The position numbers and the translations under genes were made by a program. Source: Woeseiaceae bacterium (GTDB taxonomy: Bacteria; Pseudomonadota; Gammaproteobacteria; Steroidobacterales; Woeseiaceae). From it: 39,653 nt of DNA. The stretch covers positions 1-39,653 of the forward strand of contig JALHUQ010000428.1 in NCBI GenBank assembly GCA_022866645.1. The letters run 5' to 3'. Below, one piece after another: positions 9,128 through 29,920 of this stretch. How positions within the stretch are numbered: position 1 is the first letter of the stretch; every line of letters begins with the position of its first letter. Under the pieces are notes generated by a model that worked only from the letters and a program-made list of their open reading frames with translations, had not been told where the DNA came from and did not search any database.

Positions 9128-9628
9128 ATGGAAAGTCGATCTCAGACCGCGCTGGTCGCGTTACGGCGCATCCTGCGAGTCACGGAACTCAATGCGCGCA
9201 AGCTGGCTGACCGGTCGGAACTGACGGCATCGCAGCTGCTCGTCATGCAACACGCAGGCCACGCGGGGAAGGCCCTCCCAAGCGCGATCGCGAAGGCGGT
9301 TGATCTGAAGCAGGCGACCGTAACCGTGTTGCTTAACAAACTTGAACAAGCAGGACTCGTCACCCGGCGGCGCGATACCGAAGACCGGCGACGCGTATGG
9401 ATTGAATTGACCGATGCGGGCCAGGGCGCCCTGGACCGGTCTCCCGATCTGTTACAGAACCGGTTTGAACGAGGCTTCGACAACCTGGAAGGCTGGGAAC
9501 AGGCGATGATGATATCGACGCTGGAAAGAGTCGCAATGCTGCTCGACGCAGAAGAACTCGAGGCGGCGCCCATTTTGGACATCGGTGATCTGGACCGTAT
9601 TGTTGATGAATATACTGGCAAAAAGTGA
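9128..9628 (+). CDS. MarR family transcriptional regulator
   Basis: 166 aa with a winged-HTH core (LTASQLLVMQHAG...ATVTVLLNKLEQAGLVTRRRDTEDRRRVWIELTDAG). Confidence 0.85.
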   Translation: MESRSQTALVALRRILRVTELNARKLADRSELTASQLLVMQHAGHAGKALPSAIAKAVDLKQATVTVLLNKLEQAGLVTRRRDTEDRRRVWIELTDAGQGALDRSPDLLQNRFERGFDNLEGWEQAMMISTLERVAMLLDAEELEAAPILDIGDLDRIVDEYTGKK

Positions 9629-9807
9629 CAACCAAATTAGTGCCGGCTCCAAAATCGTGCCAATACGAATAGACCGCAACCCCCTTCCACGACTACGTAT
9701 TTTGCTCATGTCGATGGAGTGATGAGATACCCCGGTCCTCTTGCTACGCGTCCGCGTTGGCAGGATGACTGCCGTGGTAACGATCTAAAACGATCAAGGA
9801 GACCATC

Positions 9808-10521
9808 ATGAAACGTTCATCGCTCATTTGGGCAACCGCAATATTGGGAGCGTCGATTGCAGGACCCGCCTGTGCGCACGAAGCCGGCGACTGGATACTG
9901 CGCGCCGGTGTCGGCACCGTCATGCCGAAAAATGACAACCTTACACTTCCGGAAATCACGATCGACCCGTTGACGGTCAACGCCGTCGTGCAGGTCGATG
10001 ACGCCGTAAGCCTGACACTGACAGCCACGTACATGTTCACCGAGAACTGGGCCTTCGATATCCTCGCGGCCTGGCCGTTCGAGCACGACATCGACCTGGA
10101 TGCGACGATATCCGACGGTGTCACGACCGAGAGCGGCAGCGTGCCGTTCGGTAAAGTCGAACATCTGCCACCGACGTTTTCCGTGCAGTATCACTTTTCG
10201 CCGGATGCGAAATTCCAACCCTTCGTTGGCCTTGGCGTGAACTACACGACGTTTCTGTCCGAAGATCTTTCGCAGGACATTATTGATGCCGGCATCGTCG
10301 ACTTTTCACTCGATGATTCTTTCGGTGTTGCCGCCCAGGTCGGTGCCGACTGGATGCTGAACGATCGTGCGTTGGTTAATTTCGACGTTCGCTGGATCAA
10401 CATTGAATCGGACCTTTCTGCAACGATCGACGACGGCATCAGCGCGCCGGCAACGGCTACATTGGGTACGGTGAAAATTGATCCCTGGGTTATTGCTGTG
10501 AACTTTGGGTATAAGTTTTAG
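9808..10521 (+). CDS. ompW: OmpW family outer-membrane protein
   Basis: Signal peptide ending ACA-HEAG. Collinear with E. coli OmpW throughout (HEAGDW..RAG, HLPPTFSVQYHF, FQPFVGLGVNYTTF, DPWVIAVNFGYKF). AAGGAGA precedes the ATG. Confidence 0.9.
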   Translation: MKRSSLIWATAILGASIAGPACAHEAGDWILRAGVGTVMPKNDNLTLPEITIDPLTVNAVVQVDDAVSLTLTATYMFTENWAFDILAAWPFEHDIDLDATISDGVTTESGSVPFGKVEHLPPTFSVQYHFSPDAKFQPFVGLGVNYTTFLSEDLSQDIIDAGIVDFSLDDSFGVAAQVGADWMLNDRALVNFDVRWINIESDLSATIDDGISAPATATLGTVKIDPWVIAVNFGYKF

Positions 10522-10626: not shown

Positions 10627-11400
10627 ATGTTTTCGGATATCCAGCTTCGCGAGGTCTTCCACTTCAGCTTCCTGCATCGGCTGCTGAAGATTTCAGATAT
10701 TGACCTCTATGTCTTAAAGGGCGGCATCAACCTGCGCCTCTTTTTTGGCAGCCCCAGGTACTCGGAAGACATGGACCTGGACGTTGTCGCCGGCAGCGTT
10801 GCTACACTCAAAAAGAACGGCTACAAGATCCTCGAAGACGCTTCGTTCCTGCGCAGTTTGCGCGTATTCGATATTGATGCAATCGACGTGAACGATCCCG
10901 CCAAAGCCAAGCACACGGAGACCACGCAGCGATTCGGATGCTCGCTGGTTCGTGGCTCCGGCGTGCGCCTTCCCACACGAGTGGAGTTTTCGCGCCGGGC
11001 CGATGACCCTGGTGATGCAGCCGACATCGAACTACTCGATGCTGCCATTGCCCGGCCCTATCGCAAACTGGCGTTTCGATGCCGTCACTACGGCGGTAGC
11101 GCCGCGATCGTGCAGAAGGTTCATGCGCTGGCGGGCCGTGCGGTGACCCAGGCACGGGACGTGTTCGATCTCGGCATACTGATCCGTGGTGGACACCTCG
11201 GCACGGCGGTCACCGAAGGCGCGCTCAAGGGCGCACCCGTGCAAGCTGCCATCGACTGCCTGATGGGACTCGGCTGGGAGGACTACGACGGACAGGTCGT
11301 GCAATACCTCGATGGCGATAGCCGCAAGGAATTCGGTCACCGCGATGGCTGGATGACGCTGCAAAACATCGTGTTCGAAGCGCTGCAAGATCATGCTTGA
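10627..11400 (+). CDS. Nucleotidyltransferase AbiEii/AbiGii toxin family protein (DUF1814, type IV TA / abortive infection)
   Basis: 257 aa with the N-terminal signature LKGGINLRLFFGSPRYSEDMDLDV (KGG ... R.S.D.D). Confidence 0.75.
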   Translation: MFSDIQLREVFHFSFLHRLLKISDIDLYVLKGGINLRLFFGSPRYSEDMDLDVVAGSVATLKKNGYKILEDASFLRSLRVFDIDAIDVNDPAKAKHTETTQRFGCSLVRGSGVRLPTRVEFSRRADDPGDAADIELLDAAIARPYRKLAFRCRHYGGSAAIVQKVHALAGRAVTQARDVFDLGILIRGGHLGTAVTEGALKGAPVQAAIDCLMGLGWEDYDGQVVQYLDGDSRKEFGHRDGWMTLQNIVFEALQDHA

Positions 11401-12001
11401 GCTCAACAGCAGCCCGGAGTTCGTCATATTCACCACGCGCGACTACGCGACGGCCGGCGGCACTTCCATGTCGTCGGCGTCGCGACGCCTGGACAGGCTG
11501 TCAGAACGCAAAGCCCTTACCCGCCTGACCAAGGGTGTCTGGGCCAATACAGCGCATCCGCACTTTCATCCGCTCGCCTGTGTGCCCTACCTGCTGGGCA
11601 AAGAACAGGGGTATGTCTCTTTTCTTAGCGCGTTGCACCTGCATGGCGTCCTGTCGCAGATTCCGCGTACCCACCAGGTTGCAACGACGGGCCGGCCCCG
11701 CGTGCTCGAATCGCCGGTTGGCAGGTTCGAGTTCCTGAGAGTCAAGCCGGAACTCATGCGCGATGGGGTCGACTGGAGTGACACGCATCAACCCTTCCTG
11801 ATCGCATCAGCCGAGAAGGCGCTGCTCGACACACTTTATATAGCCACGCGAAAGAGCAAGCGGTTTGCGAGCCTGCCCGAGCTTGATCTGGACAACGGGT
11901 TTCGTCGTCGGGAATTTGAGCGGCTACTGAAGCAACTGGCGTACCCGGTACGCATACGATCTGCCATGGCCTCACGCTGGAGGCAGTTGAAGGACAGATG
12001 A
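11393..12001 (+). CDS. AbiEi-family antitoxin-like transcriptional regulator
   Basis: 202 aa with a winged-helix-like N-terminus (FTTRDYA...SASRRLDRLSERKALTRLTKGVWAN) followed by a YVSFLSALHLHGVLSQIP block typical of AbiEi/COG5340-type proteins. Its ATG overlaps the toxin stop by 8 nt. Confidence 0.65.
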   Translation: MLELNSSPEFVIFTTRDYATAGGTSMSSASRRLDRLSERKALTRLTKGVWANTAHPHFHPLACVPYLLGKEQGYVSFLSALHLHGVLSQIPRTHQVATTGRPRVLESPVGRFEFLRVKPELMRDGVDWSDTHQPFLIASAEKALLDTLYIATRKSKRFASLPELDLDNGFRRREFERLLKQLAYPVRIRSAMASRWRQLKDR

Positions 12002-15231: not shown

Positions 15232-16248
15232 CTAGCCGCCGATATAGTACATCTCCATTTTCTGAATTTCGCGGCCTTCCCGGCGCAGCGCAGCACGTTG
15301 CTCGCTATATCGGTCCGCGCGCCGCGTCCAAACCTGCCGGATGATATCGGCGAGTTCTTCGTCATTGGCTCCGTCTCGCAGCGGCTGGCGCAGGTCGGTG
15401 CCCACTGTTGCAAAAAGGCAGGTGAACAGCTGGCCGTCGGATGACAGCCGCGCACGGTGGCAACTTCCGCAGAACGGTTCGGTCACTGACGAAATGAAAC
15501 CGATCTCACCGGCGTCATCCTCGTACACATGACGGGTGGCTACCTCGCCATCGTAATTGCTGCGTACTTCCCTCAACGGCCAACGCTCTGCTATGCGCTC
15601 GCGCAACTCGGCCGATGGCACGGTATCGGTTTCCTTCCAGTGATTGATGTTGCCGACGTCCATGAATTCGATCAGGCGCACGATGACGCCCGAGCCGCGA
15701 AACCGCTGCAGCAGCTCGGGTACGGCATGGTCGTTGACACCGCGCTGCACGACCGCGTTGATTTTGATCGGAGTGAGATCCGCTTCGAGTGCGGCATTGA
15801 TGCCTTCGAAGACGCGGTCCACGCTCCCGCGGCCGCCGTTCATCCGCCGGAACGTCCTCTCGTCGAGTGCATCGAGGCTGACAGTCACGCGATCCAGACC
15901 TGCCGCCTTCAGCCCCGCCGCGTGTTGAGCCAGCAGGATGCCGTTGGTGGTCAGCGCGACCTCCTCGATGCCCGGCAGCGCGCGCAGATCGCCGATCAGG
16001 TCCGCAAGCGCCGGTCGCAGCAACGGCTCCCCGCCCGTAATGCGCAGCTTGCGAACGCCGGCCGAGGCGAACAGGCGCGTGAGGCGCACGATCTCGCTGA
16101 ACTTCAGCCGCTGGTCGGTCGGCAGGAACTTGAAATTTCGATGATACTTTTCTTCGGGCATACAATAGGTGCACCGAAAATTGCACCGGTCCGTCACCGA
16201 GATACGGAGATCGCGCAGACCGCGCCCCATTCGATCGACCGAAGGCAT
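15232..16248 (-). CDS. moaA: GTP 3',8-cyclase MoaA (radical SAM)
   Basis: LRISVTDRCNFRCTYCMP radical-SAM motif, a C-terminal CGSCHRARLSSDG cluster motif, and a terminal GG. Confidence 0.95.
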   Translation of the reverse strand: MPSVDRMGRGLRDLRISVTDRCNFRCTYCMPEEKYHRNFKFLPTDQRLKFSEIVRLTRLFASAGVRKLRITGGEPLLRPALADLIGDLRALPGIEEVALTTNGILLAQHAAGLKAAGLDRVTVSLDALDERTFRRMNGGRGSVDRVFEGINAALEADLTPIKINAVVQRGVNDHAVPELLQRFRGSGVIVRLIEFMDVGNINHWKETDTVPSAELRERIAERWPLREVRSNYDGEVATRHVYEDDAGEIGFISSVTEPFCGSCHRARLSSDGQLFTCLFATVGTDLRQPLRDGANDEELADIIRQVWTRRADRYSEQRAALRREGREIQKMEMYYIGG

Positions 16249-16252
16249 GGAA

Positions 16253-16531
16253 TTAGCCGCCCGCTACAGCTGAAATGATGCTGACGACGTCCCCGTCACG
16301 CAGAGGCATTTTCAGACCGCTGTGTGAACGCACATCATCGACTCCGACAAAAACGTTGACGTACGGGCGAAGCTCGCCGTCGTTTACGATGACGCGCTGA
16401 AGGAACCCGGGGTGACGAGCACCAATCTGTTCGAGCGCCGCACCCACGGTGTCGGCGTCGGCGTCCATGACCGTCGCGTCGTCAACGAACGGCCGAAGCG
16501 GCATGGGAATACGCACAGTGATCTTGCTCAT
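16253..16531 (-). CDS. MoaD/ThiS family ubiquitin-like sulfur-carrier protein (92 aa)
   Basis: Ends in ...SAVAGG. ATG 16531 overlaps the upstream stop (ATGA). It is longer than canonical ~81-aa MoaD, so I did not assign the symbol moaD. Confidence 0.75.
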   Translation of the reverse strand: MSKITVRIPMPLRPFVDDATVMDADADTVGAALEQIGARHPGFLQRVIVNDGELRPYVNVFVGVDDVRSHSGLKMPLRDGDVVSIISAVAGG

Positions 16532-17292
16532 CTCGTCACCACTGCAACAACGGGACTCGAGGATCGTCGCAGGCAACAAAGGACCACGCGATCGAAGCGC
16601 GATGTCATCCGGATCGCCGCAGTCGCTGCGGCTCGCGCCAATTGTTCTAGCTGTTCATTGTCCACCATGTTGATGACCGGCGCAACGCGCGCCCCGGCGC
16701 TCCCCTGCAACGCGCCCGCGTCACTCGCCAGCAGGCGTCCGACGGCCTCCGGCGTCAGCAGGTTCCCCTGCGCCACCCCCGTGACCGCTGCAACACGCTC
16801 GATGCGATGCGCGACGCGTTCGCCCAGCGGTTCGCCGATCGCCCGTGCCGAGACCACGGGAATCACGACATCGGCGCCCTGCACGAGTAAGGGTTCGCCT
16901 TCCTCCGGCGCCTTGATCCAGCGCATGCGTGCGCCGTCGGCCTTAACGAAACTCGCATCAAAACCACCTTCCTCGTGAATCGAACGGATCATCTCCGGCG
17001 ACACGCCCGAGTATCGGCCCGCCTTTTTCGACGGGCAAGCATAAGCGACGGAACCTGAGCGCGCTGCGACCAGAACGCGATCCCGTAACATCGTTTCATC
17101 GTCGACAATGCGTTCGAGCTGGAAGTCTTCGGGAAACGCGGTCATATGCACGGTCGTGGTCAGTGCGATATGGCCGGTGTGTTCGCGGACCAGTTGATAA
17201 AGGACGGATTTCTTACCGCCTGCGCCGACCGCGCAGACGATTCCCCGGTATGCATCGAGCTCCTCGATGAGTAAACTCGAATGCTCTGTCAT
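16528..17292 (-). CDS. YqeC-like accessory protein (TIGR03172-like, deviant P-loop)
   Basis: ORF 16528..17421, started at ATG 17292, which overlaps the upstream stop (TGATG). Blocks are IVCAVGAGGKKSVLYQL...ALTTTVHM, FVKADGARMRWIKAPEEGEP, VVIPVVSARAIGEPLGERVAHR and VINMVD, collinear with the YqeC family as I recall it. Confidence 0.6.
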   Translation of the reverse strand: MTEHSSLLIEELDAYRGIVCAVGAGGKKSVLYQLVREHTGHIALTTTVHMTAFPEDFQLERIVDDETMLRDRVLVAARSGSVAYACPSKKAGRYSGVSPEMIRSIHEEGGFDASFVKADGARMRWIKAPEEGEPLLVQGADVVIPVVSARAIGEPLGERVAHRIERVAAVTGVAQGNLLTPEAVGRLLASDAGALQGSAGARVAPVINMVDNEQLEQLARAAATAAIRMTSRFDRVVLCCLRRSSSPVVAVVTR

Positions 17293-18356
17293 CACGGCAG
17301 CTCGTCCACGGCCTTTACGCTCAGGACGCGAGGGAGGTAGCTCGCGATTTCCTGCCAGCGGTCGCCGGCGTCCACGCTTGCGAACAGTTGCCCCCCCGAT
17401 GTCCCGAAGTAGACCCCACAAGGCTCGCGCGAGTCTGTGGCCATGGCTTCACGCAGCACGGTGACGTAAACGTGTTCGGCCGGCATACCCTCGCTCGCCG
17501 ATTCCCAGGTGGCGCCCGCATCGCGGCTGCGGTACACCCGCAGTATTCCGTCGACAGGCATGCGCAGATGCGAGCTCGACTCCGGAATCTGGAATGCGGT
17601 GTCCGGGTCATTCGGGTCAACCACAATCCCGTAGCCGAAATCGCTCGGCAACCCGTCGGTGATTTCAACCCAGCTTCGTGCGGCGTCGTCACTCCGGTAG
17701 ACGCCGTTGTAACACTGGCGGTAAAGCCGACTCGGCATCGTCGGATGCCTGACGATGCGATGCACGTTGTGGCCGGTCTCGGGCCGGGGCCCGGGCAGGT
17801 TCTCGGCACGCACTCCGACGTTGGCGGGCCGCCATGTCTCGCCGCCATCGTCGCTGCGATACACCCCGCCCGCCGAGACGGCGGCGACGATGTCGTCCGG
17901 GTTCTGTCCGTCGACGTAGATCGAGTGCACTGCAAAACAGCCCTTGGAGGGCTCCCAGGTCGAGCGTGTCGGATGCTCGTTGAGACCGGCGACAGGCTGC
18001 CAGCTCCGGCCGCGATCATCGCTGCGAAAGAGCCCGGCCGGATCGATACCTGCGAACAGGACGTCGCCCGCTGCGGCCAGGTACCAGATGGCTTCTGTTG
18101 CGCCACGCCCGCTGTCCGCAGCGTGCTGCGGCACGGCCTCGAGCGATGCCCAGGTCGCGCCGAGGTCGGTGCTCGCGTAGATATGTGCACCCCAGATCTC
18201 GTGTGACGTCGCGGCATAGAGCATGCCGTAGGGCGCGACCAGCGTGTGCAACACGGAGTAGCCCGCCAGGTGCGGACCGTCGAGACGCCAGTCCCCATTC
18301 GCACCATCCGCGAAGACACGAAAAAGCCCTTTCGAAGTGCCGACCAGCAACATCAT
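17292..18356 (-). CDS. BNR/Asp-box repeat beta-propeller protein (sialidase/Ycf48-like fold), cytoplasmic
   Basis: Six Asp-box motifs: STDLGATW, SDDRGRSW, SDDGGETW, SDDAARSW, SRDAGATW, SVDAGDRW. No signal peptide (starts MMLLVGTSKGLF). Confidence 0.8.
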   Translation of the reverse strand: MMLLVGTSKGLFRVFADGANGDWRLDGPHLAGYSVLHTLVAPYGMLYAATSHEIWGAHIYASTDLGATWASLEAVPQHAADSGRGATEAIWYLAAAGDVLFAGIDPAGLFRSDDRGRSWQPVAGLNEHPTRSTWEPSKGCFAVHSIYVDGQNPDDIVAAVSAGGVYRSDDGGETWRPANVGVRAENLPGPRPETGHNVHRIVRHPTMPSRLYRQCYNGVYRSDDAARSWVEITDGLPSDFGYGIVVDPNDPDTAFQIPESSSHLRMPVDGILRVYRSRDAGATWESASEGMPAEHVYVTVLREAMATDSREPCGVYFGTSGGQLFASVDAGDRWQEIASYLPRVLSVKAVDELP

Positions 18357-18416: not shown

Positions 18417-18947
18417 TCACGTTTCGAGCAGCCTCGGCATCAGTTCCGTCAGGTTGCAGGGCCGTGTGCGTTGGTCGAGCTGGGCGCTTATCAGGTCGTC
18501 CCAGGCCGTGGCGCAGGCACCCGAGGAACCGGGTACGCAAAAGACATAGGTACCGTTGGCGACGCCGGCCAGGGCACGCGACTGTATCGTCGAGGTGCCG
18601 ATCTGCTCCCAGGAGATCTTGCGAAACATCTCGCCGAAGCCGTCTATCACTTTATCGAGCAGCGGCCTCACGGCTTCGGGTGTGCCATCGCGCCCGGTGA
18701 CTCCGGTGCCGCCCGTCGTGATAACGGCATCGACACCGTCATCGGCGATCCAGCCCGCGACGACGGCACGAATCCTGTAGACGTCATCGGGCACGATCAG
18801 CTTGTGCGCCAAGTGGTGGCCTGCCTTGCCCAGGCGCTCGGCCAGCAGTTTGCCGGACTTATCGGTCTGCTCATTACGACTGTCGGAAACCGTCAGCACT
18901 GCGATGTTCAACGCGACGAATTCGCGCTCGTTCGGAGAATCTTTCAT
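18417..18947 (-). CDS. moaB: Molybdenum cofactor biosynthesis protein B (MoaB/MogA family)
   Basis: 176 aa: IAVLTVSDSR...DKSG, ITTGGTGVTGRDGTPEA. Confidence 0.9.
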   Translation of the reverse strand: MKDSPNEREFVALNIAVLTVSDSRNEQTDKSGKLLAERLGKAGHHLAHKLIVPDDVYRIRAVVAGWIADDGVDAVITTGGTGVTGRDGTPEAVRPLLDKVIDGFGEMFRKISWEQIGTSTIQSRALAGVANGTYVFCVPGSSGACATAWDDLISAQLDQRTRPCNLTELMPRLLET

Positions 18948-18971: not shown

Positions 18972-20246
18972 TCAAACGAAGGCCGCAAATGGCTGTACGT
19001 TCACCTCGTCCCCTGGCGCAACGGGACCGGCGTCTTCTGCCAGTACGATAAAGCAATTCGCAGCGCTCATCGAACTCAGAACCCCCGAACCCTGGGTGCC
19101 CGTCCTGCGTACGACGAGACGCCCGTCCGGCTTCCGCGAAAGCACGCCGCGCTGAAATTCACGGCGACCCGGCTTGGTACGCAGGGCTTCTTCGCACACT
19201 GCCGTCACACTCAGCGGCGGCGCGGGATCCGGCAACCCGGCGAGCGACTGCAGGGCAGGTTGCACCAGCTGATAGAAGGTGGCCATGACCGATACCGGAT
19301 TGCCCGGTAACCCGAAGAACAGCGCGTTGCCGATGCGGCCGAAAGCGAGCGGCCGTCCGGGCTTCATAGCGACTTTCCAGAATCCCACTGAACCCGAGCG
19401 CTCGAGTGTCTCGGTCACGTAGTCGGCATCGCCGACCGAGACGCCCCCGGTGGTGATGATGGCGTCGGCTACGGCTGCCGCGTCCGAGAATGCCCGCGCC
19501 ACCGCATCACGCTCATCGCGCACAACCCCCATGTCGATTGCTTCGACACCTAGGCGCATCAGCATGCCGTAGATCGTGTACCGGTTACTGTCGTAAATCT
19601 GGCCTTTCTCGAGCGATTCGCCGACGTGCCGCAATTCGTCTCCCGTCGAGAAGAACGCAACGCGCGGGCGCCGCCGCACACTGACCTCACTGACGCCGAG
19701 TGACGCGATGATGCCGAGCTCGGCGGGCCGCAGGTGCGTGCCGGCTCGCAGAGCAACCTCACCCGCACCGATATCCTCGCCGGCTTGCCGCACATGCTGT
19801 CCGGCCTTTTGACCTGCCGCCAGAATCGCGATGTCGCCCTCGAGCTCGACGTTCTCCTGCATGACGACGGAATCCGTACCCGCCGGCATCGCCGCACCGG
19901 TCAGGACGCGGGTGCACTGGCCCGCAGTGACTGCACCCGTGAACGGCTTGCCGGCCGCGGCGACACCAATAATCGCGAGGCGGGTCTCACCGTCGGCCTG
20001 GAGATCTCTACTGGCATACGCATACCCATCCATCGCGGAGTTCGTGTGCGCCGGGACATCGATGGCCGACACCACGTCACCGGCAAGCACCCGGCCCAGC
20101 GCGCTGCGGATCGCGAGTGTCTCAATACCTTCGACAGGTCGCGCATCGGCCAGGATGCGAGCCAGCGCATCTTCGAGCTTCAGCGCCGGACCGAAGTCGC
20201 CATCGGCGCAACAATCGATGTTGGATTTGCTGCTCATGTCACTCAT
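18972..20246 (-). CDS. moeA: Molybdopterin molybdotransferase MoeA
   Basis: ORF 18972..20546 is over-extended. ATG 20246 (MSDMSSK...) overlaps the mobA stop by 8 nt. MoeA blocks are VPAHTNSAMDGYA, ITTGGVSVGDADY and MKPGRPLAFG. Confidence 0.9.
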   Translation of the reverse strand: MSDMSSKSNIDCCADGDFGPALKLEDALARILADARPVEGIETLAIRSALGRVLAGDVVSAIDVPAHTNSAMDGYAYASRDLQADGETRLAIIGVAAAGKPFTGAVTAGQCTRVLTGAAMPAGTDSVVMQENVELEGDIAILAAGQKAGQHVRQAGEDIGAGEVALRAGTHLRPAELGIIASLGVSEVSVRRRPRVAFFSTGDELRHVGESLEKGQIYDSNRYTIYGMLMRLGVEAIDMGVVRDERDAVARAFSDAAAVADAIITTGGVSVGDADYVTETLERSGSVGFWKVAMKPGRPLAFGRIGNALFFGLPGNPVSVMATFYQLVQPALQSLAGLPDPAPPLSVTAVCEEALRTKPGRREFQRGVLSRKPDGRLVVRRTGTQGSGVLSSMSAANCFIVLAEDAGPVAPGDEVNVQPFAAFV

Positions 20247-20880
20247 CTTCCGTCGGAGTTGGCTGCTTGTGTTTCGTGAGCTTTTCTTCCAGTTCCTGCT
20301 TGTCCGCCGGTGCGTTGACGTTCGAAAAAGTATCGATCGCATCGCTGAAATCGGCGCTCGCATAGCCGTGCCGTTCGTACCAGTGATCGATCTTACGCCC
20401 ACCACCGTCGAGATACTCGACAAGGTCGGCGAACAGATCCCGATGAAGCATCGCGAACACGGGCTGCAACCGCTCGCCGTCGTGGGCGACTGCGATCTGC
20501 GAATCTTCGTTCGCCAATGCCGCATGCAATCGCCGCACGAGATCACCGCAGATCAGCGGCGAGTCGCAAGGCACGACCACAATCCAGGGCGTCTTTGCCG
20601 CCTGCATTCCGCGCGCGAATCCCGCCAGTGGCCCGCGGAACTCAGAGTTGCCGTCGTCTATAACGGCACATCCGAATTCGCTATATTTATCGTGATTGCG
20701 GTTCGCATTAATCAGTATGTCGGCCACCTGTACGCGCAGCGCGTCGATCACCCAGGCGATCATCGGCCGATCGTTAATCGGTACCAGTCCCTTGTCGACG
20801 CCACCCATACGCCGGGCCAAACCGCCGGCGAGGATAATGCCCGTCACCTGGTTGCGTACCACCTCGTCTGCCGCAGTCAA
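20239..20880 (-). CDS. mobA: Molybdenum cofactor guanylyltransferase MobA
   Basis: ITGIILAGGLARRMGGVDKGL. TTG start at 20880, with AAAGGAG 7 nt upstream. Confidence 0.85.
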   Translation of the reverse strand: MTAADEVVRNQVTGIILAGGLARRMGGVDKGLVPINDRPMIAWVIDALRVQVADILINANRNHDKYSEFGCAVIDDGNSEFRGPLAGFARGMQAAKTPWIVVVPCDSPLICGDLVRRLHAALANEDSQIAVAHDGERLQPVFAMLHRDLFADLVEYLDGGGRKIDHWYERHGYASADFSDAIDTFSNVNAPADKQELEEKLTKHKQPTPTEDE

Positions 20881-21005: not shown

Positions 21006-21674
21006 ATGGGAACCGGAGCATTTTTGTCACAATACAACTCGATTCTCCTTCTTGGTGGCACCAGGCCCGAGGCATCACGCCTCCAGCGGGCGTTGTCACG
21101 GCACTTCCTGCTGGTTGAGAGTGTGCGGGACGTCGAGGAAGCGCGACAACTCGCGCGGCGATGCCGATTCCATGCGCTGGTCCTGGTCGATCCCGAATCG
21201 CCCTGGGAGAGGATGCGCAAGGCGCTCGACGAATGCGAAGAACTGCCGCCCGACGTCCTGATCATCATCGAGAGAAACCGGGCAGAAACCGCGATTGATG
21301 CGCTGAGCGATGGTGTATGTAACGCGTTGCTGCGGCCCGTCTCGAACAATGAACTTGTTGCGGCGCTGATCCGTGCGATCGACAACCGCGACTCACGGCA
21401 GGAAGGGATCCTGCAGACTGAAACTGCGCCCGCCGACGATTCGACCGCAATTTCAGCGCTGCAATCGCCGGGCGAAGCCCGCGCACCGGCGGGAGGAGCC
21501 ACGCCACCCGGATACCCGGTCGACTGGACGCTCGAGCAGGTCAAGCGCCATCATATGATCCGCGTTGTCGACGACAGCAGCGGCAATAAATCGGCCGCGG
21601 CGCGACGCCTCGATATCTCGCGCAAGACGCTGGAGCGCAAGCTCGGTACGGGCAATCTCAAACAACGGAGGTAA
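21006..21674 (+). CDS. Atypical (pseudo-)receiver domain plus Fis-type HTH regulator, no AAA+ module
   Basis: CheY-like layout, but the acidic pair is replaced (ILLLGGT) and the conserved Lys is Arg (LLRPV). A candidate Asp is retained (LVLVDPE). The C-terminal HTH_8 is NKSAAARRLDISRKTLERKL. Confidence 0.7.
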   Translation: MGTGAFLSQYNSILLLGGTRPEASRLQRALSRHFLLVESVRDVEEARQLARRCRFHALVLVDPESPWERMRKALDECEELPPDVLIIIERNRAETAIDALSDGVCNALLRPVSNNELVAALIRAIDNRDSRQEGILQTETAPADDSTAISALQSPGEARAPAGGATPPGYPVDWTLEQVKRHHMIRVVDDSSGNKSAAARRLDISRKTLERKLGTGNLKQRR

Positions 21675-21676
21675 TC

Positions 21677-21901
21677 ATGAGCAGCAGGGACTTCGACAAG
21701 GATCAATTGAACATTGAAATTCGCCGCTTTTTGAAGCTGGTCGGGATCACGTCGCAACGCGAACTCGAAAAAGCCGTGAAAGACGCAATGGCAGCTGGCA
21801 ATTTGCCTCAATCAGGCAAGCTGGCTGCCAGGATGACGCTGTCGGTGCCTGTTCTGGGTCTCGAACACGTCATCGACCACGAGATCGATATCGACAGGTA
21901 G
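21677..21901 (+). CDS. Small conserved protein, DUF6494-like
   Basis: 74 aa. IRRFLKLVGITSQRELEKAVKDAMAAG...KLAARMTLSVPVLGLEH matches the DUF6494 pattern as I recall it. It starts 3 nt after the regulator stop. Confidence 0.5.
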   Translation: MSSRDFDKDQLNIEIRRFLKLVGITSQRELEKAVKDAMAAGNLPQSGKLAARMTLSVPVLGLEHVIDHEIDIDR

Positions 21902-21926
21902 CGGCGCCGATCTGCGACCCCTGCGA

Positions 21927-22895
21927 TCAATCACCGCCCGTCCATATGAGCGTGCCCAGCTCCGAGAGATCGTAGCCGCCGAGCGTCTTGACATGGCGCT
22001 GGCAGTCGCTGCCGCGCAGGTAGTCGAGCAAATGCTGGAACAGGCTGCGAAAGAAGATACCGCGGTGCAACGCGAGGTCAAACGCTTCCCAGCCGATCGA
22101 CAGGAAGTCGAGTCCGAATTCACTCGCGGAGGCGCGAATCCCCGGGGCAATCTCGGCCTGCCCAATTGCGATCAGCGACGCCGCTTCACGCTCGCTACCG
22201 GCACGACCGGTGATGCGCCGGTCCGACGGATCCAGGTCGTGCTGCGAGATCAGTTCGCGAAGAAATCTTTGCGAACCGCCGCCCTCCTGTCGTTCGACCC
22301 AGCGCACTTCCCGTCGAAACAGTCCTTCGATCCCGTCTCCGGCGGACCACAGACCCGGCGAGACCAGCAAACCCTGCTCCCGCCGATACAACCGTACGAG
22401 GGCCCACTCACCGGCCTGCACGAATTGGCGCAGCAGCGCAGGATGGCGATGGAAGCTCTCCGCCGCGGGCCCCCAGTGGACGCTGCAGACGTCGGCGCGC
22501 CGGTTGGCCAGCAGCGCGAGCCCGAGCTGGCTGCCGGTGGAGGTATAGCTGATCAATGCGCGGGATTGCAGTGACGTGGCAATCTGACTGAGCGCCCGAT
22601 ACAGCAGCGGGTCGTCGCTGCCGGCGATGACGATGCGGTCCGTCAGCAACCCGCCGTGACTGGATTCCAGCAGCCACTGGTCAACCAGATTGCGCGGAAA
22701 CAGCCATTTGCCCGTCAGCTTGGTCGCAGGAATCTTGCCCTCTTGCACCAGTCCGTAAACTTTCTTTTCGTTGACCTGCAAATAAGCCGCCACCTGTTTC
22801 ACCGTCATGAAGCGCGGCGGCGCGTCAGCGTGTTCCGCTGCTTCGTCGGAATAGCCTGTTTGCGCATTATCAGCGCTGTTGGAGTTCCGCTTCAC
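21927..22895 (-). CDS. TunR-like regulator: excisionase/MerR-type HTH fused to a periplasmic-binding-protein-like (molybdate/tungstate-binding, COG1910-type) domain
   Basis: N-terminal MTVKQVAAYLQVNEKKVYGLVQEGKIPATKLTGKWLFPRNLVDQWL (HTH_17 type) followed by a ~230-aa PBP-like domain. Divergent from the FDH operon. Confidence 0.65.
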   Translation of the reverse strand: MKRNSNSADNAQTGYSDEAAEHADAPPRFMTVKQVAAYLQVNEKKVYGLVQEGKIPATKLTGKWLFPRNLVDQWLLESSHGGLLTDRIVIAGSDDPLLYRALSQIATSLQSRALISYTSTGSQLGLALLANRRADVCSVHWGPAAESFHRHPALLRQFVQAGEWALVRLYRREQGLLVSPGLWSAGDGIEGLFRREVRWVERQEGGGSQRFLRELISQHDLDPSDRRITGRAGSEREAASLIAIGQAEIAPGIRASASEFGLDFLSIGWEAFDLALHRGIFFRSLFQHLLDYLRGSDCQRHVKTLGGYDLSELGTLIWTGGD

Positions 22896-23084: not shown

Positions 23085-23567
23085 ATGAGCCTCGCAGAGC
23101 GACACACGATAGCCGTAATCATGCAGCGCAGCCAGGTACGGCAGGGCCAATGGTCTGTAACGAGCTGGCGCGCAGTGTCTGTCGTCGCGGGCGAACATCT
23201 CGTCGGCAAGGGCGCCGGGCAGACACCAATTTACGAAAACGAAAGCGGTGCCCAGTTCCTCTGGACCGGCTTTTCACTGGAGCTCTACCGGGACCAGGCC
23301 GAAGACTACTGGTACAACCTGACCGGTGACAGCCCGTCGCTGTTTGTTATCTGCCACGAATCGCCGGAAGGTGATCTAGCGCCGTTTCGGGTCACCGCTG
23401 ACCAGGATTCGGCGTCCGGGTGCCTGGAGAGCGACGACCAGGTATTCGCCGTGCCGATCCCGCCCGAAATCTACCAGCGCCTTGAGCAATTCGTCGTGGC
23501 TCACTACGTTCCCCGCGAGCCCAAAAAACGCAGACGCAAGAACTGGTCGCAGGAGTCTGAACGATGA
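23085..23567 (+). CDS. DUF3305 domain protein (FDH-associated)
   Basis: ORF from TTG 23076, with ATG 23085 preferred. The pattern IAVIMQRS...W..VSVV...L.LYRD.AEDYWYNL...PSLFVI...VTADQD...VFAVPIPPEIY..LEQFV..HY..EPKKRRR is typical of this family. Confidence 0.7.
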   Translation: MSLAERHTIAVIMQRSQVRQGQWSVTSWRAVSVVAGEHLVGKGAGQTPIYENESGAQFLWTGFSLELYRDQAEDYWYNLTGDSPSLFVICHESPEGDLAPFRVTADQDSASGCLESDDQVFAVPIPPEIYQRLEQFVVAHYVPREPKKRRRKNWSQESER

Positions 23568-24190
23568 GCAACACCGCAAGGGAGGATGCGCCGGGCAACA
23601 GTGCCGCGGACATCGATACGCTTGGGAACGAGGCGTTTCTGACGCGCTGGTCGAAACGCAAGGCGCTGTCACGTGAAGGCGTGGACTTGCCGGAACCGGT
23701 GGAAAACGCGGCGCGCGAGGACGAGACCGGTGCGACCGGTGCCGATGACACCAGCGGTGATGCGCGGGCCGAAATCGCCGGACAAGCCGACGGGCCGGTC
23801 GCGGATGCAGCGCAGACGACGCCCGAGTTACCACCCATCGAATCGCTGGGCGAGGACTCTGACTATCGCGCATTTCTTGCTGACAACGTGCCGGCCGACG
23901 TGCAGCGCAAAGCGCTGCGTAAGTTGTTCCAAAGCCCCAAGTTCAACGTGCGCGACGGTCTCGACGACTACGACCTTGACTTCTCTTCGCCCGAGCCGCT
24001 CGGTGACATAGTGACGGCCGAGATGCGGCACCGCCTGCGCCAGGAACTCAAGCGCATGGTCGGACTCCATGACGACGAAGACAGCCCGCAGGACGTGATG
24101 CCGGAGGCGATCGTCGAGGCTGTCGAAAGCGACAACCCGGAAGAACCTTCTGACGACGAGCCAGACGATGAACAACCTGCAACTGCCTGA
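23564..24190 (+). CDS. DUF3306 domain protein (FDH-associated, acidic)
   Basis: FLTRWSKRK N-terminal block, an acidic low-complexity centre, and a DYRAFL...ALRKLF...FNVRDGLDDYD C-terminal block. An ATGA overlap joins it to DUF3305. Confidence 0.7.
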   Translation: MSNTAREDAPGNSAADIDTLGNEAFLTRWSKRKALSREGVDLPEPVENAAREDETGATGADDTSGDARAEIAGQADGPVADAAQTTPELPPIESLGEDSDYRAFLADNVPADVQRKALRKLFQSPKFNVRDGLDDYDLDFSSPEPLGDIVTAEMRHRLRQELKRMVGLHDDEDSPQDVMPEAIVEAVESDNPEEPSDDEPDDEQPATA

Positions 24191-29909: not shown

Positions 29910-29920
29910 GAGACTCGATC

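What the first reader, a model, noticed from the sequence alone, without database searches (positions are those of the whole stretch)
16253..18356. Translationally coupled BNR-propeller / YqeC-like / MoaD-like triad embedded in the Moco operon (top candidate for an undescribed function)
In the operon mobA-moeA-moaB-X-Y-Z-moaA, genes X, Y and Z are chained by overlapping stop and start codons (TGATG at 17290-17294, ATGA at 16528-16531), and only 4 nt separate Z from moaA. X is a 354-aa cytoplasmic beta-propeller with six Asp-box/BNR motifs (sialidase/Ycf48-like fold). No such fold has an assigned role in molybdenum or tungsten cofactor synthesis. Y resembles YqeC, a deviant P-loop protein known only by genomic association with selenium-dependent molybdenum hydroxylases. 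This window has no selD, xdh-type hydroxylase, yqeB or mocA; the local enzymes are Cys-type bis-MGD formate dehydrogenases. Z is a 92-aa MoaD/ThiS-type carrier ending in GG. It is longer than canonical MoaD, and no moaE is in the window. From memory and unverified, pairs of 'exo-alpha-sialidase'-annotated BNR propellers with ~90-aa MoaD/ThiS proteins recur in unrelated phyla. Together this suggests an uncharacterised sulfur-carrier-dependent step. Candidates are cofactor sulfuration, W/Mo discrimination or insertion, or protein conjugation.
Basis: partly seen in the sequence, partly recalled or inferred. Interest (0 to 1): 0.7.

Follow-up and report, generated by a model that had tools for sequence, protein, structure and literature searches.

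The report
Propeller, sulfur-carrier, YqeC trio in Moco operon
Three tightly coupled genes of unknown function sit inside a molybdenum/tungsten cofactor operon. Comparison with hundreds of other genomes shows that the beta-propeller and the small ubiquitin-like sulfur carrier are direct partners, often fused into one protein, so they probably form an undescribed sulfur-transfer enzyme pair.

Summary
The minus-strand operon reads mobA-moeA-moaB-X-Y-Z-moaA, with X/Y (TGATG) and Y/Z (ATGA) overlaps.

- **X** is a 7-bladed, six-Asp-box propeller of the uncharacterised 3B7F family (37% identity, TM 0.90). It is not a sialidase.
- **Y** is a YqeC-family P-loop NTPase (TIGR03172, 150 bits against a cut-off of 73).
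- **Z** is a CysO/SAMP1-like ThiS/MoaD protein ending AVAGG.

Comparative evidence:
- X is followed by Y in 76 of 77 genomes.
- In Y-seeded metagenome loci, X and Z are both present (35) or both absent (3), never split. This holds only in that sample: 17 of 65 X-seeded genome loci have X-Y with no Z nearby. The X/Z-less variants read moaB-Y-moaA.
- Distant X-like genes (33-39% identity) have an adjacent GG-ended MoaD/ThiS gene in 7 of 10 Proteobacteria and Actinobacteria loci.
- At least 120 protein clusters are natural ThiS-propeller fusions with an invariant GG junction.

X and Z are therefore direct partners, and Z is probably not the ordinary MoaD. Y is the constant Moco-operon member.

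My best guess (unproven) is an NTP-gated, thiocarboxylate-dependent sulfuration of the Mo/W cofactor for the neighbouring formate dehydrogenases; no FdhD is encoded nearby. I found no literature on this module.

The parts
17292..18356 (-). X: 354-aa cytoplasmic 7-bladed Asp-box beta-propeller, member of the uncharacterised 3B7F (Reut_B4987) family. Candidate site residues are H144, H196, H199, C215, Q214, R221, R265 and R302.
   Evidence: Pfam BNR/Sortilin-Vps10 hits. AF2 model pLDDT 90.6. Foldseek top hit 3B7F, TM 0.90; phmmer E 1.5e-70. Six Asp-boxes and no FRIP motif. Conservation analysis.
16528..17292 (-). Y: 254-aa YqeC-family P-loop NTPase. Walker A GAGGKKS at 22-29, D119, NMVD at 208-211, invariant C20, C86 and C239-C240. 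Its start overlaps the X stop (TGATG).
   Evidence: TIGR03172 150.1 bits against cut-off 73.05; PF19842 103.5 bits. 30% identity to E. coli YqeC, E 4e-19. AF2 model pLDDT 88.5. Weak Foldseek matches to IcmF/MeaB, Ffh/FtsY, ParA and HypB G-domains. No solved relative by sequence.
16253..16531 (-). Z: 92-aa ThiS/MoaD-type ubiquitin-like sulfur carrier of the CysO/SAMP1 type, C-terminus AVAGG. Its start overlaps the Y stop (ATGA).
   Evidence: PF02597 43.9 bits. SAMP1 51 against 60 and moaD_arch 44.8 against 49.5, both below cut-off. Best solved relatives are CysO 3dwg_C (E 5e-14) and 4n6e_B. C-terminal AVAGG conserved across loci.
15232..16248 (-). moaA (GTP 3',8-cyclase), 4 nt downstream of Z; last gene of the operon.
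   Evidence: TIGR02666 384.9 bits against cut-off 284.
18417..18947 (-). moaB, 60 nt upstream of X. It lies directly upstream of X in 50 of 77 related loci.
   Evidence: TIGR02667 267.6 bits against cut-off 222.4; adjacency count.
18972..20246 (-). moeA (molybdopterin molybdotransferase). The start is ATG 20246 (8-nt overlap with mobA) or ATG 20237.
   Evidence: NF007960 569.5 bits against cut-off 440; start codons.
20239..20880 (-). mobA (Moco guanylyltransferase), first gene of the operon. No mobB follows it.
   Evidence: TIGR02665 226.9 bits against cut-off 151.85; no MobB by tblastn.

Best explanation
X and Z form a two-component unit: a ThiS/MoaD-type ubiquitin-like sulfur carrier and its dedicated partner, a 7-bladed Asp-box propeller of the 3B7F family. 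This unit is widespread and uncharacterised, and occurs as adjacent genes or as a single fused protein. In this lineage a specialised X subfamily has been inserted, together with Z, around a YqeC-family P-loop NTPase (Y). Y is itself a regular member of the late-step Mo/W-cofactor operon (tup-mobA-moeA-moaB-Y-moaA).

Proposed mechanism (inferred, not shown):
1. A MoeB/MoeZ-type E1 adenylates and thiocarboxylates Z. A rhodanese-ThiF gene lies next to Z in several genomes.
2. The flexible GG-COSH tail of Z docks on the conserved face of the propeller, at the one-Cys-plus-three-His site (H144, H196, H199, C215) ringed by Arg and Gln residues.
3. Sulfur passes, gated by NTP hydrolysis on Y, onto the pterin cofactor. 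The most likely product is the terminal sulfido ligand of Mo/W-bis-MGD, which the neighbouring formate dehydrogenases need. This is the job done elsewhere by FdhD/FdsC with IscS.

Shown: gene order, coupling, co-occurrence, fusion, folds and family memberships. Inferred: physical X-Z and X-Y complexes, the site, the sulfur acceptor and the NTP gating.
For: X-Z partnership:
- In Y-seeded loci with enough flank: X+Z+ 35, X-Z- 3, no mixed cases.
- A GG-ended MoaD/ThiS gene is adjacent to 33-39%-identical X-like genes in Ralstonia, Burkholderia, Cupriavidus, Mitsuaria, Pseudomonas aeruginosa, Arthrobacter and Nonomuraea; 7 of 10 loci.
- At least 120 clusters of 441-485-aa ThiS-propeller fusions. 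GG is invariant at the junction in 122 of 122, followed by a variable linker.

X-Y partnership:
- Y directly follows X in 76 of 77 genome loci, usually with overlapping stop and start codons.

Moco link:
- moaB is directly upstream of X in 50 of 77 loci, and some Moco gene lies within the flank in 60 of 80.
- Y stays between moaB and moaA when X and Z are absent.
- E. coli yqeC sits between the XdhC-family yqeB and mocA.

Z as an activated carrier:
- A JAMM protease and a rhodanese-ThiF E1 lie next to Z in several loci. Z carries short post-GG extensions where a JAMM gene is present (L034) and in L076.

FDH link and missing FdhD:
- moaB-X-Y-Z-E1-fdsB-fdsA runs in L062 and L065 with no fdsC/fdhD after fdsA.
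- There is no FdhD in the window or in 80 loci.
- The window has two FDH-type enzymes and TupAB-like transport.

A conserved site rather than a scaffold:
- Family-wide invariant H144, H199, Q214, R221, R265, R302 and D308.
- A Cys/His swap (C197+H216 in the general family; H196+C215 in X orthologues) keeps one Cys and three His.

Y fold:
- SIMIBI/G3E-like, closest to the cofactor-delivery GTPases MeaB/IcmF and HypB.
Against: - There is no experimental evidence of any kind.
- The sulfur acceptor is not identified.
- 17 of 65 X-Y loci have no Z nearby, and 20 of 80 have no Moco gene within 8 kb. These sit next to DUF6505 or prkA-yeaH-spoVR instead.
- Most paralogous X-like/Z-like pairs and fusions lie in variable, non-Moco contexts. 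Only 2 of 7 fused loci were near Mo-hydroxylase or XdhC-type genes; others were next to AhpC, thioredoxin or glutaredoxin genes.
- In the fusions the GG is internal, so thiocarboxylation would need cleavage, which is unproven.
- FdhD, MoaD/MoaE and MobB could be encoded elsewhere in the genome. This could not be searched.
- The Foldseek support for Y's class is weak (TM about 0.4).
- I could not place the conserved X residues on coordinates; their clustering on one face is inferred from propeller topology.
- A C. difficile yqeC deletion had no clear phenotype (PMC11448449).
Confidence: 0.4

Rival explanations
1. Two independent things share an operon. Y is a MobB-like or MeaB-like cofactor-delivery NTPase for MGD/MCD formation or insertion. 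X-Z is a general-purpose Ubl/propeller module with a thiol or redox role (for example persulfidation or Urm1-like protein modification under oxidative stress) and no direct role in the cofactor.
For: - Y occurs in Moco operons without X and Z (L108, L117, L118, L140, L146, L151).
- mobA has no mobB partner here.
- E. coli yqeC neighbours mocA.
- Paralogous X-like/Z-like pairs and fusions sit in variable contexts: directly after AhpC/redoxin (L176, L177), near thioredoxin (L173), glutaredoxin (L175), a pyridine-nucleotide disulfide oxidoreductase (L179), and ahpCF in Mitsuaria.
Against: - Within the X subfamily, Y is directly downstream of X and translationally coupled in 76 of 77 genomes, including loci with no other Moco gene. 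That is hard to explain if X and Y are functionally unrelated.
- X and Z flank Y on both sides rather than forming a separate block.
Confidence: 0.22
2. Z is simply the MPT-synthase small subunit (an archaeal/SAMP1-type MoaD) working with a MoaE encoded elsewhere. The adjacent E1 in some genomes is the ordinary MoeB. X (with Y) is an accessory factor or an alternative large subunit acting at the dithiolene-forming step.
For: - Z lies in a Moco operon next to moaA.
- No other MoaD is in the window or in 80 loci.
- Z scores near the threshold on moaD_arch and SAMP1.
- A rhodanese-ThiF E1 follows Z in L032, L062 and L065.
- MoaD-MoaE fusions such as MoaX (my own knowledge) are a precedent for an Ubl fused to its partner enzyme.
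Against: - Closely related operons (MoaB 84-88% and MoaA 81-85% identical) lack Z and X altogether yet keep mobA-moeA-moaB-Y-moaA. That lineage must therefore have a MoaD elsewhere.
- Z-like/X-like pairs occur in P. aeruginosa, Ralstonia and Cupriavidus. From my own knowledge these carry canonical moaD/moaE.
- MoaE is never adjacent in 80 genome loci.
- E. coli MoaD does not detect Z.
- Z's best solved relatives are CysO proteins.
Confidence: 0.13
3. Z is a protein modifier (SAMP/Urm1-like). X is its target, receptor, ligase-like partner or processing/deconjugating hydrolase. The invariant GG plus variable linker in the fusions marks a cleavage site, as in ubiquitin precursors.
For: - Invariant GG followed by a variable low-complexity linker in 122 of 122 fusions.
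- JAMM proteases lie next to Z in some loci.
- Z is closest to SAMP1 among NCBIfam models.
- Related propellers (sortilin Vps10, Ycf48) bind C-terminal peptides (and my own knowledge).
Against: - No E2/E3-like genes or proteasome context were seen.
- X has no recognisable protease motif.
- The tight coupling to a YqeC NTPase and to Moco genes is not explained.
Confidence: 0.1
4. The public annotations are right: Y makes the labile selenium cofactor of selenium-dependent molybdenum hydroxylases, and X is an exo-alpha-sialidase or glycosyl hydrolase.
For: - Y passes the TIGR03172 equivalog cut-off, and sources name its orthologues 'selenium cofactor biosynthesis protein YqeC'.
- X-like proteins are named exo-alpha-sialidase or glycosyl hydrolase in RefSeq and PDB records.
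Against: - No yqeB or mocA in the window or in 80 genome loci. Among the window ORFs scanned, none is SelD-like or xanthine-dehydrogenase-type.
- The local molybdoenzymes are FDH-type.
- X lacks the FRIP motif, is cytoplasmic, is a single propeller, and fails the curated cut-offs of every glycosidase-type model.
- The function of 3B7F itself is unknown (PMC2716378).
Confidence: 0.04

Closest known systems
PDB 3B7F (Reut_B4987, Cupriavidus pinatubonensis JMP134), a structural-genomics 'putative glycosyl hydrolase with BNR repeats'
   Same: Homologous over the full length (E 1.5e-70, 37% identity, TM 0.90). A single 7-bladed Asp-box propeller of about 360 aa. Shares the family-wide invariants H144, H199, Q214, R221 and R302.
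   Different: 3B7F has no assigned function. It lacks the X-specific residues (H52, H58, R183, C215 and others) and belongs to the general subfamily, not the Y-linked one.
Ubl sulfur-carrier/partner-enzyme pairs: MoaD-MoaE (and the fused MoaX), ThiS-ThiG, CysO-CysM, TtuB-TtuA, CysO-BexX
   Same: A small beta-grasp protein ending in GG, encoded next to or fused with a dedicated partner. E1 (rhodanese-ThiF) and JAMM genes lie nearby in some genomes. Z's closest solved relatives are CysO proteins.
   Different: The partner here is a beta-propeller, a fold I did not find reported as a sulfur-carrier partner. No MoaE, CysM, ThiG or TtuA is nearby. The acceptor substrate is unknown.
YqeC (E. coli b2876; TIGR03172), putative accessory protein of selenium-dependent molybdenum hydroxylases
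   Same: Y passes the curated cut-off, is 30% identical to E. coli YqeC, has the same P-loop and EADG(S/A)R motifs, and shares the Moco-gene neighbourhood (mocA there, mobA/moeA/moaB here).
   Different: No yqeB (XdhC-like) or mocA in the window or the 80 genome loci, and no SelD-like or xanthine-dehydrogenase-type protein among the window ORFs scanned. The partner is the propeller X. Y has a subfamily-specific CC motif. YqeC itself has no demonstrated function.
FdhD/FdsC plus IscS (sulfuration of Mo-bis-MGD for formate dehydrogenases) and XdhC/MOCOS (sulfuration of Moco for xanthine-oxidase-family enzymes)
   Same: This is the step I propose for X-Y-Z: installing a terminal sulfido ligand on a finished cofactor before insertion. 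FDH genes are adjacent, and no fdhD is seen locally.
   Different: No sequence or fold similarity. The sulfur would come from a protein thiocarboxylate rather than a cysteine-desulfurase persulfide. This is a functional analogy only and is untested.
G3E/SIMIBI cofactor-delivery GTPases (MeaB/IcmF, HypB, UreG, MobB)
   Same: Y's predicted fold is nearest to these. It has a P-loop and an NKxD-like NMVD motif. mobA lacks mobB in this operon.
   Different: Structural matches are weak (TM about 0.4, E about 1e-3). There is no sequence similarity to MobB, and nucleotide specificity is unknown.

Membership tests
Sialidase / GH33 (exo-alpha-sialidase) | FRIP motif with the Arg triad, a Tyr/Glu nucleophile pair, and a six-bladed propeller | tested here: not met
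   No [FY]RIP motif in X. BNR_2 scores 25.9 against 31.4 and BNR_3 22.2 against 27, both below the gathering cut-offs. The closest structure is the 7-bladed 3B7F, and sialidases are not among the top Foldseek hits.
GH74 xyloglucanase | Two tandem 7-bladed propellers forming the catalytic cleft, about 700-790 aa | tested here: not met
   X is a single 354-aa propeller. GH74 hits cover only one propeller at TM about 0.6 and 16-20% identity.
F510_1955 family glycosylhydrolase (NF045728) and Ycf48 (NF010237) | Score above the curated NCBIfam cut-off | tested here: not met
   78.2 against 175, and 16.1 against 326.
3B7F / Reut_B4987-like single Asp-box propeller family | Full-length homology and the same 7-bladed fold | tested here: met
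   phmmer E 1.5e-70 over residues 1-349. Foldseek E 2e-34, TMq 0.90. 3B7F is 7-bladed with 5 Asp-boxes (PMC2716378).
YqeC (TIGR03172 / PF19842) | Score above the curated cut-offs; P-loop | tested here: met
   150.1 against 73.05; 103.5 against 27.6. GAGGKKS is aligned with E. coli VGAGGKTS.
YqeC as a selenium-dependent molybdenum hydroxylase accessory system | Co-occurrence with selD, yqeB (XdhC-like), mocA and xanthine-dehydrogenase-type hydroxylases | tested here: not met
   No YqeB or MocA by tblastn in the window or in 80 genome loci; one YqeB-like hit among 80 metagenome loci. Among the window ORFs scanned, none is SelD-like and the molybdoenzymes are FDH-type. The genome-wide test was not possible.
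ThiS/MoaD beta-grasp sulfur carriers (PF02597) | Pfam score above the gathering cut-off; C-terminal Gly-Gly | tested here: met
   43.9 against 22.5. AVAGG* in the window and in nearly all orthologues.
MoaD, MPT-synthase small subunit | Partner MoaE (usually adjacent); match to MoaD models | tested here: not met
   No MoaE in the window or in 80 loci. E. coli MoaD gives no tblastn hit. moaD_arch 44.8 against 49.5. Sister operons lack Z entirely. A MoaE elsewhere in the genome could not be excluded.
SAMP1 (NF041918) | Score above the curated cut-off | tested here: not met
   51 against 60.
CysO-CysM cysteine pathway | CysO-like carrier together with the CysM sulfhydrylase, Mec+ (JAMM) and MoeZ | tested here: inconclusive
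   Z's best solved relatives are CysO (E 5e-14). JAMM and rhodanese-ThiF genes occur next to Z in some loci. No CysM-type PLP enzyme was seen among the window ORFs scanned or among the recurrent neighbour clusters.
G3E/SIMIBI metallochaperone GTPases (MeaB, HypB, UreG, CobW) and MobB | Sequence or strong structural similarity; NKxD guanine-specificity motif | tested here: inconclusive
   Foldseek best hits are IcmF/MeaB, Ffh and ParA at TM 0.33-0.43, E 4e-4 to 1e-2. The profile search of PDB found nothing. NMVD is present in Y, but E. coli YqeC has NRFS at that position. No MobB similarity.

The most novel reading that the evidence does not exclude
The 3B7F-type Asp-box propeller is a new class of acceptor enzyme for ThiS/MoaD-type protein thiocarboxylates, with a Cys-plus-three-His site at the propeller face. 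In Mo/W-cofactor operons it works with a YqeC NTPase to install the terminal sulfido ligand on Mo/W-bis-MGD. This would be an FdhD/IscS-independent cofactor sulfuration route. It would also reveal the generic role of the YqeC family as the NTPase of chalcogen (S or Se) insertion into molybdenum cofactors.
Probability: 0.22. Interest if true: 0.85.

Novelty: new variant of a known kind. Interest (0 to 1): 0.7.

Why it matters
- **Sulfur carriers.** Each known ubiquitin-like sulfur-carrier system is defined by its partner enzyme (MoaE, ThiG, CysM, TtuA and others). A beta-propeller partner, found fused or adjacent in Actinomycetota, Acidobacteriota and Proteobacteria (including P. aeruginosa, Ralstonia and Burkholderia), would add a new and widespread branch of sulfur-transfer biochemistry.
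- **Misannotation.** Thousands of proteins now annotated 'exo-alpha-sialidase' or 'PSII assembly factor-like' would get a handle on their real function.
- **YqeC.** The family has been an open question since 2008 and is known only by association with selenium-dependent hydroxylases. Here it sits in a plain mobA-moeA-moaB-Y-moaA operon with no selenium genes nearby, next to formate dehydrogenases. That makes its role testable in a simpler setting.
- **Formate dehydrogenases.** If the module sulfurates Mo/W-bis-MGD, it bears on how these enzymes are matured for CO2-reduction biotechnology in organisms whose FDH operons lack fdhD.

Tried and rejected
- **Sialidase, GH74, Ycf48 and F510_1955 readings of X.** Rejected on curated cut-offs, motif absence and architecture.
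- **Multi-His hub metal site like N2O reductase or thiocyanate dehydrogenase.** I considered this because X orthologues have about 10 invariant His residues. Only H144 and H199 are invariant family-wide, so I replaced it with a one-Cys/three-His proposal, still unverified.
- **Y as a MobB homologue.** No sequence signal. The profile search of PDB was empty. Only a weak SIMIBI/G3E fold resemblance.
- **Fusions as assembly artefacts.** I first suspected this because the P0288 cluster holds both fused and unfused members, and P0354 looks frameshifted. I rejected it for the P0299 clade after finding at least 120 independent fused clusters with an invariant GG.
- **A common neighbour of the fused or paired paralogues.** None found. 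Contexts are variable.
- **Literature searches.** Searches for YqeC, 3B7F/Reut_B4987, PF19842/PF25852/DUF6505, BNR plus sulfur carrier, and PA1354-PA1357 found no functional study of the module. The BNR protein in the fitness-browser preprint belongs to a different family.
- **Mapping conserved residues onto coordinates.** Not possible; model coordinates are not exposed.
- **My crude ORF caller.** It produced antisense shadow ORFs (clusters 8, 13, 14, 24). I based the counts on tblastn instead.

Full report
**1. The observation**

The minus strand of the window carries a tight operon:
- mobA, 20880-20239
- moeA, about 20246-18972
- moaB, 18947-18417
- X, 18356-17292
- Y, 17292-16528
- Z, 16531-16253
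- moaA, 16248-15232

Reading the DNA confirms the junctions. The X stop overlaps the Y start (TGATG, 17294-17290). The Y stop overlaps the Z start (ATGA, 16531-16528). Four nucleotides separate Z from moaA. mobA and moeA either overlap by 8 nt or are 1 nt apart.

Curated family scans give the following:
- The four flanking genes are bona fide MobA, MoeA, MoaB and MoaA, all above the NCBIfam cut-offs.
- Y is a YqeC-family protein (TIGR03172 150 bits against cut-off 73; PF19842).
- Z is a ThiS/MoaD-family protein (PF02597). It scores just below the SAMP1 and archaeal-MoaD cut-offs.
- X matches only generic BNR/Asp-box models.
- X has six Asp-boxes, no FRIP motif and no signal peptide.

The rest of the window:
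- tblastn finds no MoaE, E. coli-type MoaD, MobB, FdhD, YqeB or MocA.
- There are two formate-dehydrogenase-type molybdo/tungsto-enzymes. One is at 26997-29909, with a TorD-like chaperone plus DUF3306 and polyferredoxin genes. The other is at 37821-39617, cut by the window end.
- A TupA/TupB-like oxyanion ABC transporter is also present.

**2. What the three proteins are**

X:
- The model is confident (pLDDT 90.6).
- Its only close structural relative is PDB 3B7F (Reut_B4987): TM 0.90, 37% identity, phmmer E 1.5e-70.
- 3B7F is a structural-genomics 7-bladed Asp-box propeller listed as 'function not known' (PMC2716378).
- GH74 enzymes, DAIP, Ycf48 and sortilin follow at TM about 0.6.
- X fails every curated glycosidase or Ycf48 model, so the 'sialidase/glycosyl hydrolase' labels are fold labels, not functions.

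Y:
- It is 30% identical to E. coli YqeC.
- E. coli yqeC lies between the XdhC-family gene yqeB and mocA.
- Y has a Walker A motif (GAGGKKS), a conserved D119 and an NKxD-like NMVD motif.
- It also has a subfamily-specific CC pair (C239-C240) that E. coli YqeC lacks.
- No relative has a solved structure.
- Its model (pLDDT 88.5) resembles SIMIBI/G3E NTPases only weakly. The best hits are the MeaB/IcmF G-domain, Ffh/FtsY, ParA and HypB, at TM about 0.4.
- The literature gives YqeC no demonstrated function. A C. difficile deletion had no clear phenotype.

Z:
- It is most similar to the CysO sulfur carriers 3dwg_C and 4n6e_B, and then to SAMP1.

**3. Conservation of the arrangement**

A scan of one genome per species returned 80 loci with X orthologues at 55-99% identity. 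They come from:
- Gammaproteobacteria: Woeseiaceae including cultured Lentisalinibacter, Steroidobacteraceae, Thioalkalivibrio, Ectothiorhodospiraceae, Acidiferrobacterales.
- MAGs labelled Nitrospira, Gemmatimonadota and Myxococcales.

Counts from these X-seeded loci:
- Y directly follows X in 76 of 77 loci with enough downstream sequence. The start and stop usually overlap by 4, 1 or 8 nt.
- moaB is directly upstream of X in 50 of 77.
- Z is nearby in 48 of 65.
- Some Moco gene lies within the flank in 60 of 80.
- Z almost always ends in AVAGG.

Signs that Z is an activated Ubl:
- In L034 and L076 Z carries a 1-2-residue extension after GG.
- In L028, L032, L034, L056, L074 and L079 a JAMM/MPN protease gene lies next to Z.
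- In L029, L032, L062, L065, L066 and L067 a rhodanese-ThiF E1 follows Z.

The reverse scan, seeded with Y in metagenomes, returned 80 more loci:
- X is directly upstream of Y in 57 of 64.
- The exceptions are informative. L108, L117 and L118 read (tup)-mobA-moeA-moaB-Y-moaA with neither X nor Z, although MoaB and MoaA are 81-88% identical to the window's proteins.
- L140 and L146 read moaB-Y, and L151 reads mobA-Y.
- Among loci with adequate flanks the table is X+Z+ 35, X-Z- 3, X+Z- 0, X-Z+ 0.

Three conclusions follow:
- Y is the constant Moco-operon member.
- In the Y-seeded sample X and Z are both present or both absent, never split.
- Within its subfamily X is almost never without Y. The one exception is L046, which reads moaB-X-Z.

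Seventeen X-Y loci lack a nearby Z and lie outside Moco operons. They sit behind DUF6505 in the Nitrospira/Acidiferrobacterales type, or behind prkA-yeaH-spoVR in another gammaproteobacterial type.

**4. The deep X-Z link**

Adjacent pairs:
- tblastn of X against annotated plasmids and chromids found X-like genes at 33-42% identity.
- In 7 of 10 loci inspected, an 89-95-aa MoaD/ThiS gene lies immediately beside the 'exo-alpha-sialidase'. Six of the seven end in GG; the Nonomuraea copy (L090), as I called the ORF, ends ...PALA.
- It is upstream in Ralstonia, Burkholderia, Cupriavidus metallidurans, Mitsuaria and P. aeruginosa.
- It is downstream in Arthrobacter and Nonomuraea.
- The flanking genes are otherwise unrelated.

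Fusions:
- An exhaustive HMMER search of 1.84 billion representatives found 950 relatives at E<=1e-30. Among the 150 listed were proteins of about 450 aa whose N-terminus is a ThiS domain.
- Searching with one of them (P0299) returned at least 120 distinct 90%-identity clusters of 441-485 aa with the ThiS+BNR architecture. They come from Actinomycetota and Thermoanaerobaculia assemblies, some on megabase contigs.
- All 122 fused sequences keep (A/S)ISGG at the domain boundary. A 4-30-residue, poorly conserved linker follows, and then the propeller.
- This is a classic Rosetta-stone fusion. It parallels MoaD-MoaE fusions (MoaX, from my own knowledge).
- The invariant internal GG suggests cleavage to expose the carrier's C-terminus.

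Contexts of the fused genes are variable:
- Directly after a Fer2/MoCoBD/FAD molybdenum hydroxylase (L172).
- 3-6 kb from XdhC, MocA-like, CoxE and CoxG genes (L178).
- Directly after an AhpC-type peroxiredoxin (L176, L177).
- Near thioredoxin or glutaredoxin genes (L173, L175).

**5. A conserved site on the propeller**

- Across X orthologues, paired paralogues, fusions and single-gene representatives, the invariant polar residues are H144, H199, Q214, R221, R265, R302 and D308 (X numbering).
- The general family also has C197 (122 of 122 fusions, 55 of 75 singles) and H216.
- X orthologues instead have H196/N197 and C215/Y216.
- The inventory of one Cys plus three His at adjacent positions is thus kept by a swap.
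- By propeller topology these residues lie in D-to-A linkers and B-C loops, the usual active-site face. I could not check this on coordinates.
- A reactive Cys flanked by His, Arg and Gln would suit receiving a thiocarboxylate-borne sulfur as a persulfide or acyl-disulfide, or binding a metal. This is inference.

**6. Interpretation**

What is shown: X and Z are direct partners. The evidence is joint presence or absence in Y-seeded loci, adjacency in two phyla, and abundant fusion.

Z is unlikely to be the housekeeping MoaD, for three reasons:
- Sister operons lack Z yet keep the whole Moco set.
- From my own knowledge, P. aeruginosa, Ralstonia and Cupriavidus carry canonical moaD/moaE in addition to the pair.
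- MoaE is never nearby.

X and Y are very probably a complex, or at least act consecutively, given near-universal translational coupling. Y belongs to Moco maturation in its own right.

The most economical mechanism puts these together:
- Z is thiocarboxylated by a MoeB/MoeZ-type E1 and delivers sulfur at the propeller site.
- Y, a MeaB/HypB-like NTPase, gates hand-over to or from the pterin cofactor.
- I favour the terminal sulfido ligand of Mo/W-bis-MGD as the acceptor.

Reasons for favouring that acceptor:
- The operon otherwise holds late steps: tup, moaB, moeA, mobA.
- FDH genes follow X-Y-Z-E1 directly in L062 and L065, with no fdsC/fdhD after fdsA.
- No FdhD is present in the window or in 80 loci.
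- The YqeC family was originally linked to the analogous labile selenium ligand.

This is a hypothesis with perhaps 0.2-0.4 probability. The more general statement, a sulfur-carrier-dependent accessory step of Mo/W-cofactor maturation, I put near 0.55-0.6.

Evidence against:
- X-Y pairs occur without Z and without Moco neighbours.
- The paralogues lie in non-Moco, partly redox-flavoured contexts.
- The Foldseek support for Y's class is weak.
- There are no experimental data.

**7. Rivals**

- Y is a MobB/MeaB-like delivery NTPase, and X-Z is an unrelated thiol/redox Ubl module sharing the operon (0.22).
- Z is the ordinary MoaD, with X-Y acting at the dithiolene step (0.13).
- Z is a protein modifier, and X is its receptor or processing enzyme (0.10).
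- The database labels, selenium cofactor and sialidase, are correct (0.04).

**8. Novelty**

- The component families are known. Pipelines already name Y 'selenium cofactor biosynthesis protein YqeC' and X-like proteins 'exo-alpha-sialidase'.
- I found no paper describing a ThiS/MoaD-propeller partnership or fusion, nor a BNR propeller or YqeC in a mobA-moeA-moaB-moaA operon.
- The classic surveys of prokaryotic ubiquitin-like proteins do not mention it.
- I classify it as a new variant of a known kind: an Ubl sulfur-carrier system with a new partner fold, plus a new context for YqeC.
- Interest: 0.7.

Noticed in passing
L108 (380-4092), L117 (260-2579), L118 (58-5775): Sister operons read (tupC-tupA)-mobA-moeA-moaB-Y-moaA with no X and no Z, although MoaB and MoaA are 81-88% identical to the window's proteins. 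X and Z have been gained or lost together on either side of Y.
   Followed up: yes
P0299, P0393-P0511; loci L172-L180: A large clade of 441-485-aa natural fusions: ThiS/MoaD domain, invariant (A/S)ISGG, 4-30-aa variable linker, then an X-like propeller. Found in Actinomycetota and Thermoanaerobaculia. Public names call them 'MoaD/ThiS family protein' or 'molybdopterin converting factor small subunit / PSII stability factor-like'.
   Followed up: yes
X residues 196-199 and 214-216 (window 17771-17760 and 17717-17709): A swap between subfamilies. The general family has C197 and H216; X orthologues have H196/N197 and C215/Y216. One Cys and three His (with H144 and H199) are kept. This suggests a metal or persulfide site but was not checked on coordinates.
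   Followed up: partly
P0247 (704 aa): A Ser/Thr protein kinase domain fused N-terminally to an X-like propeller. This is another architecture of the family, and its meaning is unknown.
   Followed up: no
L046 (3-1677): The only locus with moaB-X-Z and no Y between them (an uncultured Thioalkalivibrio MAG). All sub-combinations of the three genes therefore exist somewhere.
   Followed up: partly
L024, L026, L033, L036, L040, L042 (about 7350-9850): In the Nitrospira/Acidiferrobacterales-type loci X-Y is preceded by a DUF6505 protein (PF20115, 200 bits) and a FimV-like protein. There is no Z, and moaC lies about 5 kb downstream in three of them. The function of DUF6505 is unknown.
   Followed up: partly
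L049, L052-L054, L058, L072, L073, L075, L080: In another gammaproteobacterial group X-Y lies directly downstream of, and co-directional with, a class-V aminotransferase (cysteine-desulfurase-like fold) followed by prkA-yeaH(DUF444)-spoVR. There is no Z.
   Followed up: no
L034 (10265-10546), L076 (9838-10116), and L028/L032/L056/L074/L079: Z carries 1-2 residues after GG (AVAGGAS*, AVAGGR*) in two genomes. A JAMM/MPN protease gene sits next to Z in several genomes, and a rhodanese-ThiF E1 follows Z in L029, L032, L062, L065, L066 and L067. This is a CysO/Mec+/MoeZ-like toolkit without CysM.
   Followed up: partly
L176 6489-8377, L177 4394-6282; L085 188-5059: A fused ThiS-propeller gene lies 59 nt downstream of an AhpC/redoxin gene, and the Mitsuaria pair lies near ahpCF. 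This recalls the Urm1-Ahp1 connection in yeast, but may be coincidence.
   Followed up: no
L172 2272-8362; L178 1639-8389: One fused gene follows a Fer2/MoCoBD/FAD (xanthine-oxidase-family) hydroxylase operon plus DUF1326. Another lies 2-6 kb from XdhC_CoxI, an NTP_transf_3 (MocA-like) gene, CoxE and CoxG. These are possible links to sulfido-dependent Mo enzymes, from only two loci.
   Followed up: partly
window 21006-22895: A regulatory block divergent from the operon. It holds a 222-aa protein with only a Fis-type HTH_8 (no AAA+ domain detected), a 74-aa DUF6494 protein (21677-21901), and an HTH_17+PBP_like protein (21927-22895), possibly an oxyanion-sensing regulator. The block is conserved next to mobA in many related loci.
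   Followed up: partly
window 23564-32733: A cluster of DUF3306, a 556-aa polyferredoxin, a TorD-like chaperone, a 970-aa FDH-like bis-MGD enzyme (below every equivalog cut-off), an FeS subunit, a cytochrome b, and then a 261-aa ankyrin-repeat protein. The substrate of the enzyme is not established.
   Followed up: partly
window 33466-37449: TupB-like permease, ABC ATPase and TupA-like binding protein, all below the curated TupA/TupB cut-offs, followed by an alginate-export-family outer-membrane porin (PF13372). This may be a dedicated tungstate/molybdate uptake route.
   Followed up: partly
window 10627-12001: An AbiEii nucleotidyltransferase toxin gene followed by an overlapping gene with a weak AbiEi-antitoxin match (a type IV toxin-antitoxin-like pair), just outside the Moco region.
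   Followed up: no
Y residues 239-240 (window 16578-16573): An invariant Cys-Cys pair, plus C20 and C86, in the Y subfamily. E. coli YqeC lacks it. It could be a persulfide relay or a metal ligand.
   Followed up: no
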